Assembly: GCA_951406725.2 (NCBI GenBank)
Contig: OX597819.1
Span: 33,790,001 to 33,854,000, forward strand
DNA from: Octopus vulgaris
Lineage: Eukaryota
Direction of reading: 5' to 3'
Length of the DNA: 64,000 nucleotides
How positions within the stretch are numbered: position 1 is the stretch's first letter; every line of letters begins with the position of its first letter. The notes below the pieces were generated by a model. The model had not been told where the DNA came from and did no database searches. It was given only the letters and a program-made list of their open reading frames with translations. The position numbers were made by a program, and so were the translations under genes. Positions 1,401 to 63,550 of this stretch are shown piece by piece.

Positions 1401-1442
1401 ACCAATCAGCAGCATTGCAGATCCTGTGTATGATTATTAAAT

Positions 1443-1443
<1 letters not shown>

Positions 1444-1540
<97 letters not shown>

Positions 1541-1546
1541 TCTCTC
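1444..1546. repeat. (CT)n microsatellite
   Basis: Direct observation. Confidence 0.95.
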
Positions 1547-1844
1547 TTCAGACATTGACTTAGAGGCATTCTAGACTCCAGTAAATCCTTACTTTCACAT
1601 CATCTATTTTACTTCCCCTCATTCTCAGCTTCCTAGATCACCTCTGCAACACACACTCACTCACACATATACATACACTGGCTAATGCACACACACACAC
1701 ATACATATGCACACAAACATATTAAAATATTACAAGCAGTCTTTCATTCCAAACACTGTCTCACTGTCAAACACCAACCCCTTCTGTGTGCTCCCTATTC
1801 ACTACACCAAATATCACTTATACACACATGGTATTCTTCTGTCA

Positions 1845-1916
1845 GCGTCGGTGGTGTAATGGTTAGCATGGTTGCCTTCCAAGCAGTTGATCTGGGTTCG
1901 ACTCCCGGCCGACGCA
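1845..1916 (+). tRNA. tRNA-Gly-TCC: tRNA-Gly(TCC), gene or recent retrocopy
   Basis: 72-nt cloverleaf: acceptor GCGTCGG/CCGACGC, D arm GTGT/GCAT, anticodon arm GTTGC-CTTCCAA-GCAGT, T arm CTGGG-TTCGACT-CCCGG, discriminator A, no encoded CCA. T4 follows at 1926-1929. Confidence 0.9.
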
Positions 1917-1931
1917 GGCGATAGCTTTTAT

Positions 1932-2162
1932 GGTGGCGAGCTGGCAGAAACGTTAGCACGCCGGGCGAAATGCCTAGCGGTATTTCATCTGCCGTTACAT
2001 TGTGAGTTCAAATTCCGCCAAGGTTGACTTTGCCTTTCATCCTTTCGGGGTCGATTAAATAAGTACCAGTTACGCACTGGGGTCAATGTAATCGACTTAA
2101 TACCTATGTCTGTCCTTGTTTGTCCCCTCTATGTTTAGCCCCATGTGGGTAATAAAGAAATA
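1932..2162 (+). mobile_element. SINE family A
   Basis: Full monomer homologous to 608-838, lying 15 nt downstream of the tRNA. Confidence 0.9.
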
Positions 2163-2439
2163 GGTATTCTTCTGTTAAGAAATATATACCTCATTCTATA
2201 TTGCTCCACCACATCCAAAACTTCACCATACCAACACCGCTACAAAATTCAACCAAGATTGAACCTATATAACAACACCTTGTCACTAATTATTTTGTTA
2301 ATAACAACTTTCATTATTATTGAATTAAAAATCTCTCCATGGCCACCTAAGATAGTTTGTGACAGTGCATGTGCACATGACTATGTACTCACATGTGGAG
2401 ATGTAATGGCCTAGGAAAACAGTGAAAAATTAAATATAA

Positions 2440-2853
2440 GCGCAGGAGTGGCTGTGTGGTAAGTAGCTTGCTAACCAACCACATGGTTCCGGGTTCAGTT
2501 CCACTGCCTGGCATCTTGGGCAAGTGTCTTCTGCTATAGAACCGGGCCGACCAATGCCTTGTGAGTGGATTTGGTAGACAGAAACTGAAAGAAGCCTGTC
2601 ATATATATGTATATATATATGTATGTGTGTGTATGTGTTTGTGTGTCTGTGTTTGTCCTCCTAGCATTGCTTGACGACCGATGCTGGTGTGTTTACGTCC
2701 CCGTAACTTAGCAGTTCGGCAAAAGAGACCGATAGAATAAGTGCTGGGCTTACAAAGAATAAGTCCCGGGGTCGAGTTGCTCAACTAAAGGTGGGCGGTG
2801 CTCCAGCATGGCTGCAGTCAAATGACTGAAACAAGTAAAAGAGTAAAAGAGAG
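2440..2853 (+). mobile_element. SINE family B (tRNA-like head, internal (TA)/(TG) microsatellite, GTAAAAGA tail)
   Basis: Head GCGCAGGAGTGGCTGTGTGGT...GGTTCAGTYCC; about 15 copies in the window. Confidence 0.9.
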
Positions 2854-3049
2854 TGTACAAGGTTCTACTAAGTTTTCTAACAGCAACTAAAAACAAAGCA
2901 AAAAATTTCTCAGTTCAAAGGTGAAGGTTTCATAATGATTTGTTAAATGGTTTCATTGTACTGATTCTCAATACTCGACCATGACTTTTTATCTCACTTA
3001 GTAAATACGCTATCTCTCTCTTTCTCTTTCTTTCTTTCTCTCTCTCTCT

Positions 3050-3076
3050 CTGTATGTGTGGCACATGTGTGTATAT

Positions 3077-3137
<61 letters not shown>

Positions 3138-3240
3138 TATACTTACACATGCACACACACATATATATATATACATATACACACACACATATATATACAT
3201 AACACAAAGATATATTATGCACACACACGCACACACACTA
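3050..3240. repeat. (TA)/(CA) compound microsatellite
   Basis: Direct observation. Confidence 0.9.
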
Positions 3241-3787
3241 ATTTATATATTATCACTTCTAAAGTTGCAATAAGAGATTTCTAAGTGTGCTGGCCAACAG
3301 AAATATTTTTTTTCTTTCTTGTTTTTTAAAAAAGCCAGATTCTTCAGATTCCTAAGTAACTACACATGCCATACCATAACGACTGCCAAATTTCTAAATT
3401 TATTATGTAACAACAGAAAAAAAAAACTTTCAATAATGAAAGTGAATACCACATTACTATACCCTAAAAACAGGTAAAAAAATTAAACAGGCAATAAAAG
3501 GTTCATCCACCCCCACCCACCCAAATACAATACAAATACTGCTTTTGCAACAAAACTTGCACTCAATCTCATAGAGAAATACCAAATTTAGACTTGCTTA
3601 AAATATAATGCTATCCCTATATTTTTAAAACACCCATCTGTAGTTCCTTCTTCACCTTCCTTTGAAATTTAGCTTTATCTCTCCTCCTCCACTTTCCCCC
3701 TCCTCTTCATCCATCTTTGAACTTTATTTTTATATTTGACATCACTGTTACCACCATCAACATTAAGAGGGAGTTTATGTGATTGCT

Positions 3788-21345: not shown

Positions 21346-21360
21346 ACATATATATAGGTA

Positions 21361-21433
21361 AATGCAGCTGATGAAGCCTAATCAAATTTACGTAGTCAAA
21401 CGTATTTGAAGAGTCAGAAACCGGTCCTGCATT
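21361..21433 (+). ncRNA. Type I hammerhead-like ribozyme motif (Penelope-type)
   Basis: Stem I AATGCAG/CTGCATT; CTGATGA at 21368-74; long imperfect stem II; GAAA at 21417-20; palindromic ACCGGT; GUC cleavage triplet. Confidence 0.65.
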
Positions 21434-21677
21434 ATCCGATTCTAGGTTGTCCATTTATCAGTTGTTCTTCCTAGAGGTAAGACAAATTTTTTTCATGTTT
21501 GTTGCACACACGCGTCTTTGCTAGTATATACGCAGTGAAGCTATACAATAGCGTCGTATTTATTATGATTGCTATTTTCCAGTAAATATCGGTGCCTTAT
21601 TGTACCATTTATTTACTTTTATATATATATACATATTTACACACACACATGCATATATATATATGTGTGTGTGTGTT

Positions 21678-49089: not shown

Positions 49090-49527
<438 letters not shown>

Positions 49528-57152: not shown

Positions 57153-57796
57153 TTAAACAACAAAAAAATTTATATTTGAAGCCAATTGAGAACCCACCAC
57201 ACACACACACACACTCACTCACATATATACATACACACACAGACACACACACATTCACACACACATGGCTCACTTGAACAATTGTGAAGATTGCATCACA
57301 TGAAACTACTGGTTGCCTTGCTAACCCACAAATAAAGTATATACACACACACACATACACACACATATATACATATAAATTTATATAACGTGCGTGTGTA
57401 TGTATATGTACACAGACACACATGCACACACACACACACACATGCACATATTTGTTTGGGGAATTGGTTCTTGGAACATATGTTATAAATAACAGCATGT
57501 AAATATGGGGTCAAAAATGTTGAAGACTGTCTCCCAGGCTGCCTTCAAATTATTCTATCCAAAAAGAATTATCAACCCAATATTTACATGCTGGTATTTA
57601 TTGCATTTATAAGCTTCAAGAACCATTTTTCTTAAAAAAAAAAAAAAGAAATATTTTGCCTTCAAAAGATTATAAATTCTTATACCATCAACAAATGTAT
57701 GTATAAGTATGCCTGTGTATGTATGCAGATAGATGCAGCAATTAATGACTTGCAGGGACACAATATTTTGTTATGCAACCATAATATACTATAAGG

Positions 57797-58508
57797 CAAT
57801 GCTTCTCAAACAATCTGATGTGACATACCAGCAGTTTTTTTTCCATTGTACCAGGGACCAGTAATATTTCTTAGTAATATTAATTTATACCAGAAACAAT
57901 ATATACTCTTTAATCTTTACTCTTTTACTTGTTTCAGTCATTTGACTGTGGCCATGCTGAAGCACCGCCTTTAGTCAAGCAAATGAAGCCCAGGACTTAT
58001 TCTTTCTAAGCGTAGTACTTATCCTATCGGTCTCTTTTGCCGAACTGCTAAGTTACGGGGACATAAATGCACCAGCATCGGTTGTCGAGCGATGTTGAGG
58101 GGACAAACAGAGACACACAAACATATACACACACATACATATATATATACATATATATACAACAGGCTTCTTTCAGTTTCCATCTACCAAATCCACTCAC
58201 AAGGCATTGGTCGGCCCGAAGCTATTGTGGAAGGCACTTGACCAAGGTGCCACACAGTGGGACTGAACCCAGAACCATGTGGTTGGTAAGCAAGCTTCTT
58301 ACCACACAGCCCCTCCTGCACCTATATATAATGAATATAATAAAAGTTGACAATTTTTTTTATCGTACATTTATTTTATAAACAAATAATACAATATTTT
58401 ATAAGCATTTTATAATGTCTCTTTCTTTTCTGGAAACTCGTCACATACCAGCAGTTGATGGCTCAGTCACTGGCACCAATCTGCAGACCTTCACTTTGAG
58501 TAGCACTG
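57797..58508 (-). mobile_element. hAT-Charlie-type MITE containing SINE B (57906-58322, -)
   Basis: Reverse complement of 35060-35765; TSD CTATAAGG/CTATGAAG. Confidence 0.85.
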
Positions 58509-58605
58509 CTATGAAGTATATTAAACATTTCTTATAAGTTAATACTGCATTCTACTTTGTTAGCAGTGTGCTTTACAACACAGTATTGACTTCTAAAAAC
58601 ATTTA

Positions 58606-59038
58606 CCATATATACTCGAGTATAAAACGCCCTCGCCTATAAGACACCCCACCCACCCAACTTACAAGGTTCAAATCGGGAATTTTATCATTGACCTGGC
58701 TATAAGTCACACTGACTTTTTTGATGTTGGAGAGCAAAGTTTAATTTGGAATTGCACCAACATAGTTGTTGTTCAGTAACCAAGCTTTCAGTGAGCTGAA
58801 GATGACTTACAACAACTGTTATTCTCATTAAGTCCATGCATTTTTAGAAACCGTTGTTTATAATGTAAAATTTTATCCATTTCAGTTATTCCAAATGTCG
58901 GAACTTCAGATGTGGCTTGTACCTAGGAAATATCTGAAGGTATTTTTTTATAGGATGTGCTTATAAGTCGCATCCCCCAACTTTAGGTGAAAAATTTCAG
59001 GGAACTATAGCTGAGTATATATAGCCGAGTATATATGG
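58606..59038. mobile_element. Tc2/pogo-like MITE
   Basis: TA|CCATATATACTCG ... CGAGTATATATGG|TA, with repeated TATAAGWCRC subterminal motifs. Confidence 0.8.
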
Positions 59039-59043
59039 TAATA

Positions 59044-59352
59044 GTGGAAGCACAATGGCCCAGTGGTCAGAGCAGTGGACTCGTGGTTGTAGGGTCGTGG
59101 TTTCGATCCCCAGACCGGGTGTTGTGAGTGTTTATTGAGCGAAAACACCTAAAGCTCCACAAGGCTCGGGCAGGGGACGGTGGCGATCCCTGCTGTACTC
59201 TTTCACCACAACTTTCTCTCACTCTTTCTTCTGTTGGCCTGCTCGTTTAGCCAGCAGGGTGGCGTCACTTGATCACTAAAACAATGCGAAGCGCATTGTG
59301 ACCAGCGATGTGTAGCAACATCTGATAGCCTGGTCGGTCACATGATCACGTG
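59044..59352 (+). mobile_element. SINE family C
   Basis: 13-bp TSD ATATATGGTAATA at 59031-59043 and 59353-59365. Confidence 0.9.
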
Positions 59353-59544
59353 ATATATGGTAATATACTTTATAGTATATATTATGGTTGCATAATGAAA
59401 CACCATGTCCTTACAAGTCATTAATATTTATGTACCAGCTTTCAGGAACATGTTTACTATGTAAAATTGGTATATCCAATAACATTATACTGCTGTGTTT
59501 AGTGGCTATTAAAGCACAGAGTTCATGGATGATTAATGGGTTAG

Positions 59545-59593
59545 GTGGGTGCTGATGAAGGAGCAAAACTCCTGAAATATTATATACGCCCAT
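59545..59593 (+). ncRNA. Type I hammerhead ribozyme motif
   Basis: Stem I GTGGGTG/CGCCCAT; CTGATGA; stem II AGGAG-CAAAA-CTCCT; GAAA; stem III ATA-TTA-TAT; AUA triplet. Confidence 0.7.
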
Positions 59594-60149
59594 TACATAT
59601 TTTTCATCCTCAATCTCATGGTTGTTGTTTACATCAGGCGTCTTGTATATGAAACATTGTAACAAAAATCAGTGCTGATTATAATTTCTACAGAACAAGT
59701 TCAGTAATTAAGATCTCATTTAACTGCAATCTGTTTCAGAACTTACACATTAGTTTACACTGCATCAGAAAAATATGGTGCATAAATGCATGTAGCCTGA
59801 AACGAGTGTTTAAGGCAACTAAGAGTACATGAAACAGACTATTGTCAGATGGTACCTCAACTACGGGATGCCTTGCATGAAACTCTACCAACCCAGTATT
59901 GAGCACTGTCACGTCTCACATATGTTAAACTCATCACCAACTGGCTAACGGACAGACAAATAGGTGGTGATTCAATTAAAAAGAAAATAGAAAGGTAAGC
60001 AGTATACAAATTTAATTATTAATCAACAAATGACCCAGTAAACAACAAAAAAACTGTGAAATATGCATTCATGGGTTTCAGATATCTGCATGCAAATATA
60101 TATCTGAATCTTATATGTCTGTCTGTCTGTCTGTCTGTCTGTCAGTCTG

Positions 60150-60324: not shown

Positions 60325-61533
60325 AACTCTTCAGCTTGTCCTTATATCTGAGCCATGGTTGACCAACATTCCTGTACCCACTATCAAGCTGGTTGTACAC
60401 GAGGACTTTAGGTATTCCTCCATCACTCATTCTGATGACATGGCCAGCTCAGCACAATTGTAATTGCACAAGGAAACTCTCAATTCCACCAATCTTACAT
60501 TTGCTAAACAGGTCGGCATTAGAAACTCTGTCTTTTAGTGAATAATCACATATTGTCCCAAGACAGCGTTTGTGGAAGATGTCTAGTTGGTTAATGTGTC
60601 GTCTATAGGGTATCTATGATTCTGGGCCATACTAGAGAGTAGTAAGAATGGCAGCTTTATAGACCTGTACTTTGGTGTCACGGTTGATGCCCCTTTGATT
60701 CCATCGGTGATGATGGAGTTTGCATTTGCAAGATGATTGACGATTTAATCATCAAGGAAAATGCTTGAATTCACTTTAGTACCAAGATATGTAAATGACT
60801 TCACATAATTTAGGCTTTTCCCATCAACCTGCATAGGAGGGTCAAGAAAATTGTGAACTGGTGGCCTCTGCTTGACACCTCAAATCTGTTTAGGTTTAGG
60901 GCAAGGTTGATGGATAACTTCTGTCTTCTTTATGCTGATGGTCAAACCAAAGGCTTTACATGCAGCAGAAAACTGGTCACGAAGTTCCTGAGCTTCCTCT
61001 AAGGCAGTCACTACTAGTGTAGCAGCATCTGCAAATAGTAGATCAAAAATGATACTGGTGCACAGCAGTGTTCTGGATTTGAAATGCTGATGATTGAATA
61101 GTCCACCACTTGTTCAAACCTGGAATTTGACACCACTTTGTATGTCGCCAAAAGCATACCTCTGCATTACTGAAAAGAAGAGTGCAAACAAAACAGGGGC
61201 CATAACACAACCTTGCTTTGTGCTGTTTGTAGTGTCAAAGGAAGCCAAACATTCCCCACCAGATGTGATAGCGGCCTTCATTCCCACATAAAAGGAGATG
61301 ATAACATTCAACATTTTGTCAGGTATCCCAAGCTTTAACAGAACTTTCCATAGTGCTTGCTAGTTAAGTGCTGAAAGCCTTAGTAAGATCAATGAATACC
61401 ATCAACAACTCTTGATTTTTTTTTCTTTGATTTTTCTCATGTACCTTCTCCATGACCTGTCAAAAGCAAGAGATCATGTCAATAGTGCAATGACCAGAGC
61501 AAAATCCGCACTGTGATCCAGGATAGATATCAT
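60324..61533 (-). pseudogene. RTE (BovB-like) LINE reverse transcriptase relic
   Basis: Ordered motifs SQCGF, VFIDLTKAF, KQGCVMAPVLF, LLFADA, FGLTISIKKTEV, FTYLG, GQPWLRYKDKLK, with stops and frameshifts. Confidence 0.9.
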
Positions 61534-62779: not shown

Positions 62780-63550
62780 TGGAGGACTGTAGTCTTCTCT
62801 GGTGAAAGTCGATACTGCATTTTTGTGGCAGATGGCAGAGCTACGGTTTGGAGAAGAAAGGGTGAATGTCATGCCAATGGTTGTATGGTGGAGAGAGACT
62901 CATAGGGGGGATAAAGCAACATGGTATGGAGTGGAGGTGGTCTTCCAAAATATCGCCCAAGGCTGGTGCAATGGAGTAACCACTGCTAGCTACATCAACC
63001 AAGTGTTGAGGCCTCACATTGTGTCATAATTTGCCCGTCATCAGAATCATGTGTTCCAACATGAGAACACCCATGCCCATACTGCCAGGTTGACAACAGA
63101 CTTCCTCCAACAGCACAATATCCAGAGACTGCCATGGCCTTCCCTAAGTTCAGACTTGAACCCCATAGAGCACCTGTGGGGCAAAATCGAAAGAAGGATA
63201 AATGACATCCATCCAAGGCCAACAACTGAGGCACAACTCACTGCAAGTTTTAACAGAGTGTGGGCTGATATCCCCATGGCCTTCATCAGTTGCTTGGTGC
63301 ATTCAATGTACAGAAGATGCCTGTTGGTAATCAATGCTAACAGTGGTCACACATGATATTGAGTTCATCTCTTTGGATCCAGGACACTCTTTCATCACGT
63401 GACACCATGTAACATCAAACATGTTTTAGGAAATGACGTTTTGTCATTAAGAAAGTACGGTTTCTTAATTAGCACTCTTCAATCAATGCTATAGCAATCT
63501 GTTAATAAACTGGTTTCTATTCAGTATGAGTGCAATGCTTCTTTTGTGGT

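What the first reader, a model, noticed from the sequence alone, without database searches (positions are those of the whole stretch)
59545..59593. Apparently intact stand-alone hammerhead ribozyme
All core nucleotides are present with three closable stems: I GTGGGTG/CGCCCAT (two G-U), II a perfect 5 bp with CAAAA loop (A-U rather than G-C at the base), III 3 A-U pairs with a TTA loop, and an AUA cleavage triplet. Its sequence is unrelated to the other two motifs, so three independent hammerhead families occur in 64 kb, hinting at very high genomic density.
Basis: partly seen in the sequence, partly recalled or inferred. Interest (0 to 1): 0.7.

Follow-up and report, generated by a model that had tools for sequence, protein, structure and literature searches.

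The report
Fossil copy of ribozyme jumping repeat
The self-cutting RNA motif is really there, but it is not stand-alone: it is one worn copy of an old 409-base repeat with thousands of copies, likely pasted around the genome by Penelope-type jumping-gene enzymes, which is a known kind of genomic parasite; cutting is untested.

Summary
The type I hammerhead motif is present as described (only strict hit in the window; 0 of 150 shuffles). It is not stand-alone. It sits in a ~409-bp non-coding repeat unit (1,441-3,380 search candidates; 211 copies keep core plus stem II, control 0). The family forms short head-to-tail arrays, and its consensus folds as a rod-like circle (z -5.6). Its 3' ends cluster at two fixed points, and back-to-back arms usually end one at each point (15 of 18; 13 of 17 with laxer alignment). 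This is the footprint of a Penelope-like element (PLE). No autonomous partner was found. The window copy is old: ~90% identical to its subfamily, split by later mobile insertions and shared with a related species. It has lost 2 nt of stem III, 1 nt of loop II and part of distal stem I, so 'intact' holds for the core only. This scan already reported the same architecture for younger families in this genome and in others. Verdict: new, apparently extinct family of a known kind; low interest.

The parts
59535..59601 (+). Extended type I hammerhead: distal stem I 59535-41/59595-601 (one mismatch and one wobble against the family), 2-nt bulge 59542-43, proximal stem I 59544-51/59587-94, core 59552-58 and 59574-77, stem II 59559-63/59569-73, stem III 59577-79/59583-85, predicted cut 3' of A59586, U1.7 at 59593
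59361..59695 (+). Main piece of the plus arm of the repeat: unit position 347 through the unit junction to position 266 of the next unit, 86% identical to the pooled consensus and ~90% to subfamily B. A degenerate alignment continues to ~59725, i.e. to fixed end A
58578..58605 (+). 5' start of the plus arm (unit 321-346), separated from the main piece by two later insertions
58509..58568 (-). 5' part of the inverted (minus) arm (unit 303-363); head-to-head junction with the plus arm at 58569-58577
57741..57796 (-). 3' part of the minus arm (unit 356-409), ending exactly at fixed end B (ATTAAT)
57797..58508 (.). Later insertion splitting the minus arm: 14-bp terminal inverted repeats and an 8-bp target duplication (6 of 8 match); hAT-like by recalled criteria. 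It contains a further common repeat at ~57916-58330
58606..59038 (.). Later insertion splitting the plus arm: 19-bp terminal inverted repeats, TA duplication, dispersed (40 matches scored of 74 candidates); Tc1/mariner-like miniature element by recalled criteria
59044..59352 (+). Still later insertion with a tRNA-like head and a perfect 13-bp target duplication (59031-43 and 59353-65); SINE by recalled criteria

Best explanation
The motif is the hammerhead of one old, decayed copy of a ~409-bp protein-free repeat family, likely a non-LTR retrozyme that was mobilised by Penelope-like (PLE) enzymes and appears inactive now. Shown: the family, its tandem units, three subfamilies, two fixed 3' ends about 124 and 246 nt downstream of the predicted cut, 5' truncation, head-to-head arms, the age of this copy, and abundant GIY-YIG PLEs in the genome. 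Inferred: transcripts of dimeric or longer copies self-cleaved at AUA into unit-length RNA that folded as a rod-like circle. A PLE reverse transcriptase/endonuclease then cut AT-rich DNA and primed both strands on that RNA at two internal start sites, which would give one arm ending at site A and the other at site B. This copy has a single hammerhead and a shortened stem III, so it could not release a unit-length RNA. I expect weak in vitro cutting at best (about even odds at high Mg2+) and no biological role.
For: Repeat family: 43 matches, 40 scored of 1,441 candidates; 1,576 candidates for the other part of the unit; 3,380 with a whole-unit query. Unit of 409 bp, 36% GC, with arms up to 2.4 units long. 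No coding: no long frame in the consensus; among 128 of 158 flanking ORFs scanned, no GIY-YIG hit and one RT hit that lies on the opposite strand. Fixed ends: 113 of 159 3' ends fall in two windows covering 66 of 409 nt, against 27 of 159 5' ends; in an independent set of 28 loci, 34 of 49. Head-to-head pairs: 28 found, 18 with both ends classed, 15 of them A+B (p~0.003). With 89 loci and laxer alignment, 32 found, 17 classed, 13 A+B (p~0.02). Tail-to-tail pairs: 0 in every set. Circular consensus folding: z -5.6 (0 of 60 shuffles); subfamily C z -6.6 (0 of 50). Selection on the ribozyme in source lineages: all 6 substitutions between subfamily C and A/B in the 70-nt hammerhead leave core and pairing intact (p~0.004, or ~0.017 counting the A/B change at 11.1); the 2 indels fall in loop III or make a stem I bulge. 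Age: no copy above 93% identity to its consensus; nested insertions; an orthologous contig in coded organism E spans element and unique flank with 22 differences in 303 nt and no gap. Neutral survival of this core is unremarkable: 23% expected, 3 of 18 seen in copies found without using the hammerhead. PLEs are abundant: 150 GIY-YIG matches scored of 6,136 candidates, some in 781-codon frames. Literature match: PMC8557442, PMC11167929, PMC7229834, bioRxiv 10.64898/2026.07.22.740005.
Against: No autonomous PLE carrying this sequence as its pseudo-LTR was found. There was no blastn hit in 20 GIY-YIG loci, and tblastn of one PLE protein and seven GIY-YIG pieces gave nothing convincing in about 120 family loci (one 21-aa hit at E 6e-4). 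The partner is therefore inferred. The two ends are ~120 nt apart, not the 30-40 nt of the canonical PLE tail. Target-site duplications were not evident on visual inspection of the flanks. Covariation among copies is weak: 10 pairs with double changes, 11 of 500 shuffles as high, on 39 of 59 copies. No circular or linear RNA was shown. Core conservation among copies is mixed: higher than background in subfamily C loci (93.6% vs 87.6%, p~1e-4), marginal in the window-query set (92.3 vs 89.7), lower in the set found by a query outside the hammerhead (83.6 vs 88.9, where the background is inflated by the query). Loci were the best-scoring hits, not a random sample.
Confidence: 0.85

Rival explanations
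1. The copies are 5'-truncated ends (solo pseudo-LTRs) of an old autonomous PLE rather than an independent non-autonomous retrozyme.
For: 5' truncation, inverted 5' copy, partial tandems and hammerheads are all described for PLE ends (PMC8557442 passages). An A follows CUGAUGA, as in PLE hammerheads that carry a nucleotide between 9 and 10.1 (PMC4209133 passages).
Against: Where arms are long they continue into another unit, not into an ORF (arms of 540-994 nt in 8 loci). No PLE protein match in about 120 loci. The hammerhead has a full extended stem I with U1.7 and the whole unit folds as a rod, which fits retrozymes better.
Confidence: 0.1
2. This particular copy has been kept as a working ribozyme by the host (domestication).
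For: Core, stem II and 8 bp of stem I are perfect. It has 5 substitutions in 67 hammerhead positions against 38 in 289 elsewhere. The two visible hammerhead differences in the organism E ortholog are structure-neutral (59572 C>T gives G-U; 59581 T>C lies in loop III).
Against: The copy was picked because it looks intact, and about a quarter of copies keep the core by chance. Of 29 copies already selected for core and stem II, 10 also keep stems I and III. Stem III, loop II and distal stem I are damaged. The predicted share of the active fold is 5-fold lower than for the consensus, and the stem III dimer duplex falls from -8.4 to -0.2 kcal/mol. Four ortholog differences could not be placed. No host exon was detected among 112 window ORFs scanned.
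Confidence: 0.04
3. A chance motif with no ribozyme ancestry.
For: Rfam did not call it, and stem III is not in the minimum-energy fold.
Against: 0 of 150 shuffles; 211 genomic matches against 0 for the reversed pattern; core and pairing kept across three subfamilies.
Confidence: 0.01

Closest known systems
Metazoan non-LTR retrozymes (Cervera and de la Pena 2020, PMC7229834: passages and section 14 read; Li, Clavereau and Pollet 2026, bioRxiv 10.64898/2026.07.22.740005: parts 1-3 of 5 read)
   Same: Type I hammerhead in a non-coding unit of a few hundred bases (150-450 bp; mussel 350-390 bp), GC below 45%, dimers and partial multimers plus many monomers, strongly self-paired unit RNA, thousands of copies, co-occurrence with PLEs.
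   Different: This family looks extinct (no copy above 93% identity), arrays are short (at most 2.4 units seen), expression and circles are not shown, and the parts of those papers that I read do not describe two fixed 3' ends paired in head-to-head arms.
Pseudo-LTRs and insertions of endonuclease-bearing Penelope-like elements (PMC8557442 passages; PMC4209133 passages; PMC11167929 parts 1-2 of 4 read)
   Same: 5' truncation, partial tandem, inverted 5'-truncated copy, two alternative 3' ends downstream of the hammerhead, AT-rich ends, self-complementary stem III/loop III. PMC11167929 shows a PLE protein cutting and extending both strands and starting reverse transcription at two internal RNA sites.
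   Different: No ORF and no identified autonomous partner. The distance between the two ends is ~120 nt rather than 30-40. The hammerhead has a 3-4 bp stem III and an extended stem I rather than the minimal form, and A-U or A.C rather than G10.1-C11.1 at the base of stem II.
Extended type I hammerheads (Schistosoma type; PMC6155905 and PMC11875169 passages)
   Same: Bulged, extended stem I, U at position 1.7 (65 of 69 copies) and a 6-nt loop II ending in A, as needed for the loop II-U1.7 contact; AUA triplet as in some natural hammerheads (PMC1636495 passages).
   Different: In the window copy loop II has 5 nt and distal stem I is broken. In this family U1.7 is drawn Watson-Crick paired, so the contact is only possible, not shown.

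Membership tests
Type I hammerhead ribozyme | Core CUGANGA...GAAA...UH with stem I open-ended | tested here: met
Type I hammerhead ribozyme | Stems I, II and III closable | tested here: met
   8, 5 and 3 bp; stem III is marginal and absent from the minimum-energy fold
Type I hammerhead ribozyme | G10.1-C11.1 at the base of stem II | tested here: not met
   A-U in subfamilies B and C, A.C in about half of subfamily A copies. This pair is typical rather than obligatory: axolotl HHR_Amex2 has U.U there (PMC7229834)
Type I hammerhead ribozyme | Match to an Rfam hammerhead model | tested here: not met
   none among 6 matches at E<=10
Type I hammerhead ribozyme | Site-specific self-cleavage | not testable with these tools
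   needs an in vitro assay
Non-LTR retrozyme | Type I hammerhead in each unit of a 150-450 bp tandem repeat, GC below 45-50% | tested here: met
   family: 409 bp, 36% GC; two hammerheads in tandem in L007, L046, L048, L163, L171, L172, L176. The window copy itself holds one hammerhead
Non-LTR retrozyme | No protein coding, no LTR/PBS/PPT | tested here: met
   no long frame in the consensus (longest ATG-started frame 66 codons) and no PLE protein match; PBS and PPT were not searched for specifically
Non-LTR retrozyme | Highly self-paired unit RNA | tested here: met
   consensus circles, z -5.6 and -6.6; prediction only
Non-LTR retrozyme | Expressed linear and circular RNA | not testable with these tools
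   no run on record as RNA was listed and only contigs were available
Non-LTR retrozyme | Target-site duplications (when present) | tested here: inconclusive
   none evident by eye in 28 flank pairs of old copies
Autonomous Penelope-like element | RT plus GIY-YIG ORF between pseudo-LTRs | tested here: not met
PLE-type insertion | 5' truncation, partial tandem, inverted 5'-truncated copy | tested here: met
PLE-type insertion | 30-40 bp tail at one end (two start sites of reverse transcription) | tested here: inconclusive
   two fixed ends exist but are ~120 nt apart

The most novel reading that the evidence does not exclude
The family is a fossil record of two-ended priming on a small ribozyme circle. 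A dimeric PLE enzyme would extend the two strands of one DNA cut from two different start sites ~120 nt apart, each just 3' of a conserved hairpin, always using one site per strand. That would stretch the 30-40 nt PLE tail three- to fourfold. The three subfamilies would also show a hammerhead under selection moving between a perfectly palindromic (dimer-type) and a 4-bp (monomer-capable) stem III, with an unusual A-U or A.C pair at the base of stem II.
Probability: 0.45. Interest if true: 0.5.

Novelty: new member of a known kind. Interest (0 to 1): 0.22.

Why it matters
For this locus, little: it is a fossil copy and shows that a lone, intact-looking hammerhead in such a genome is expected from neutral decay of a large repeat family. 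At family level it adds an old, apparently extinct retrozyme lineage with three subfamilies, and more genomic support that animal retrozymes are inserted by PLE enzymes from two fixed internal start sites, which can be tested with the existing in vitro PLE assay (PMC11167929). Hammerhead counts here (at least 7,460 exact motifs from three patterns) are of the order published for coral (>6,000), mussel (~5,000) and axolotl (126,247) (PMC7229834). Searches 'hammerhead ribozyme + octopus' and 'cephalopod + ribozyme + Penelope' listed no paper describing this family; the giant squid genome paper reports 235 Rfam hammerheads (PMC6962438 passage). Repeat databases and supplements were not consulted, so it may already be catalogued there.

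Tried and rejected
Rfam: no hammerhead call; the window hits are mostly microsatellite-driven miRNA matches. Search for an autonomous partner: a recalled Pfam accession was not in the library; the GIY-YIG search found PLEs, but none of the 20 fetched loci (of 150 scored) matched the unit; the first tblastn was swamped by flanking repeats translated into the queries and was redone with clean PLE pieces. A 66-codon frame over the hammerhead was judged chance and not pursued. A consensus fold of subfamilies A, B and C gave no clean compensatory signal outside the hammerhead: of 54 variable columns, 36 unpaired, 7 kept and 11 broken. Pair counting on 39 of the 59 hammerhead copies (rows with large indels and near-duplicates left out) was weak. 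Expression: no RNA holder listed; two short contigs of a run only guessed to be RNA (X8) were laid and are no evidence either way. The ortholog's core 59552-58 could not be read because 4 differences were hidden under paralog depth. One search misassigned end A through a script slip; the counts used are from the corrected. One of 30 loci (L143) was dropped by a script slip. Six duplicate loci were dropped, three before and two.

Full report
Observation. The motif is in the sequence exactly as described. A three-stem descriptor finds it as the only hit on both strands of the window, and block-wise dinucleotide shuffles give a hit in 0, 1, 1 and 3 of 150 runs at four stringencies. Rfam does not call it, and the minimum-energy fold forms stems I and II but not stem III. 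The genome is 2.8 Gb in 227 contigs. That it is a cephalopod is my inference from composition and from earlier scan notes, not a tool result.

Host repeat. A search with 59430-59700 returned 43 matches at 75-84% identity besides itself, from 40 scored of 1,441 candidates. Queries with other parts of the unit gave 1,576 and 3,380 candidates. Alignment of 63 non-redundant loci defines a 409-bp unit of 36% GC that recurs head-to-tail, with arms up to 994 nt. The consensus has no long frame. A Pfam scan of 128 of 158 flanking ORFs found no GIY-YIG domain and one RT fragment on the opposite strand. An exact pattern for core plus stem II occurs 211 times, against 0 for the reversed pattern. From per-base decay rates this implies roughly 2,300 hammerhead-spanning copies (a rough estimate).

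The family hammerhead. The consensus is an extended type I motif: 7 bp, a 2-nt bulge and 8 bp in stem I; a 5-bp stem II with a 6-nt loop ending in A; U at 1.7 in 65 of 69 copies; a 4-bp stem III with a 3-nt loop; triplet AUA. AUA occurs in natural hammerheads but is the slowest of the tested triplets after purification (PMC1636495 passages). Three subfamilies are resolved. A and B differ at 17 sites; A has C and B has U opposite the A at the base of stem II. C differs from A/B by 41 substitutions and 5 gap columns in 411 and has a perfectly palindromic 10-nt stem III/loop III. All 6 substitutions between C and A/B inside the 70-nt hammerhead fall at N7, in the bulge or loop II, or swap between Watson-Crick and G-U pairs. 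The chance of that is ~0.004, or ~0.017 if the A/B change at 11.1 is counted as a miss. The two indels lie in loop III or make a stem I bulge. This points to selection for the ribozyme in the source lineages. Evidence among individual copies is weaker and mixed: pair covariation on 39 of 59 copies is marginal, and core conservation is above background in subfamily C loci (353 of 377, 87.6% expected), marginal in the window-query set (346 of 375, 89.7% expected) and below background in the set found with a query outside the hammerhead (189 of 226, 88.9% expected, background inflated by that query). The consensus unit folded as a circle is far more stable than shuffles (z -5.6, 0 of 60; subfamily C z -6.6, 0 of 50).

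Insertion footprint. 5' ends are scattered, whereas 3' ends cluster near unit positions 279-298 (A) and 402-418 (B): 113 of 159 3' ends against 27 of 159 5' ends lie in these windows, and 34 of 49 in 28 independent loci. Head-to-head pairs are common and tail-to-tail pairs absent. Of 28 pairs, 18 had both ends classed and 15 were A+B; with more loci and laxer alignment, 13 of 17 among 32; 3 of 3 among 7 in the subfamily C set. The loci are top-scoring hits, and one query lay next to end B, so proportions are biased, but the pairing excess is not explained by end frequencies (p 0.003-0.02). PMC8557442 (passages) describes 5' truncation, partial tandems, an inverted 5'-truncated copy and a 30-40 bp tail at one end as PLE features. 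PMC11167929 (parts 1-2 of 4) shows a PLE protein cutting and extending both strands at ATT and starting reverse transcription at two internal sites downstream of the hammerhead; it also found hammerhead cleavage dispensable for insertion in vitro and dependent on protein. The genome holds many GIY-YIG PLEs, which I read as Neptune-like from a recalled CxxC linker motif, but none tested shares this unit. The enzyme is therefore inferred.

The window copy. It is a complete two-armed insertion spanning 57741 to about 59725. The minus arm runs from 58568 to 57741 and ends exactly at B. The plus arm starts at 58578, is traceable to 59695 and decays towards A. The arms are split by an element with 14-bp inverted ends and an 8-bp duplication (57797-58508), by an element with 19-bp inverted ends and a TA duplication (58606-59038), and by a tRNA-headed element with a perfect 13-bp duplication (59044-59352); the class names hAT-like, Tc1/mariner-like and SINE are recalled. 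The copy is ~90% identical to subfamily B, and no copy examined exceeds 93%. Contigs from coded organism E span element and unique flank with 22 differences in 303 nt and no gap, so the insertion and the stem III deletion predate that split. The two differences visible inside the hammerhead are neutral for the structure; four differences could not be placed. Against its subfamily the hammerhead has lost 2 nt at stem III/loop III and 1 nt of loop II, and carries a mismatch and a wobble in distal stem I. The predicted share of the active secondary structure drops about 5-fold and the stem III dimer duplex from -8.4 to -0.2 kcal/mol. An intact core is expected in about 23% of copies by decay alone, and was seen in 3 of 18 copies found without using the hammerhead and in 23 of 59 overall. 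With one hammerhead, this locus cannot yield a unit-length RNA by double cleavage. No host coding exon was detected among 112 window ORFs of at least 75 codons; short exons would be missed.

Density claim. The other two motifs belong to separate repeats. One has 7,114 exact core-plus-stem-II matches and shows the PLE-type extra A before G10.1 and a palindromic stem III (PMC4209133 passages). The other pattern has 135 matches that include sister families. Both controls are 0. The total of 7,460 is one per ~375 kb, a lower bound, and of the order of published counts for coral, mussel and axolotl (PMC7229834 passages and section 14).

Comparison and verdict. It works like, and at family level meets the testable features of, a metazoan non-LTR retrozyme (PMC7229834; bioRxiv 10.64898/2026.07.22.740005, parts 1-3 of 5). 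Expression, circularity and cleavage are untested. It fails the test for an autonomous PLE. Earlier notes of this scan report the same two-ended architecture for younger families in this genome and in others; none matched this sequence. I had reached this reading before consulting them and do not count them as support. Supplements of the cited papers were not read and could list related families. The finding is a new, old member of a known kind, and the locus itself is a fossil.

Noticed in passing
window 49135-49200 (-): Copy of a very abundant second hammerhead family (7,114 exact core-plus-stem-II matches, often in opposite-strand pairs). Extra A before G10.1 and palindromic ACGU stem III; the window copy has a G>C change in stem II that 2 of the 10 other copies displayed share.
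   Followed up: partly
window 21358-21434 (+): Copy of a third, younger family (93-98% identity; unit about 415 bp with a 78-bp terminal repeat). Hammerhead with a long stem II, A.A at its base, palindromic ACCGGU stem III and GUC triplet.
   Followed up: partly
window 63289 (-): CTGATGA followed by a family-2-like hairpin but no GAAA, overlapping a DDE_3 transposase fragment at 63030-63353 (+).
   Followed up: no
window 1845-1916 (+): tRNA gene, Rfam 62.4 bits; anticodon reads TCC (Gly).
   Followed up: no
window 60883-61359 (-): Decayed reverse transcriptase fragment with one stop; no match to the PLE protein tested, probably a LINE.
   Followed up: partly
window 57916-58330: Very common dispersed repeat nested in the hAT-like element and found beside many family loci.
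   Followed up: no
L076, L078, L081, L084, L089 (about 1,000 nt downstream of the GIY-YIG domain): A young PLE family with 781-codon frames has no canonical CUGANGA...GAAA on its sense strand; a TTGATAAGG...CCGAAACATG stretch may be a variant hammerhead.
   Followed up: no
L073:2377 as oriented: PLE 3' region with a minimal hammerhead (palindromic GUAC stem III), followed by AT-rich sequence loosely like the end of the 409-bp unit; not significant by blastn.
   Followed up: no
L014/L019: A whole head-to-head insertion, both arms ending at site A, is duplicated in tandem with its neighbour repeat, so local duplication also multiplies these hammerheads.
   Followed up: no
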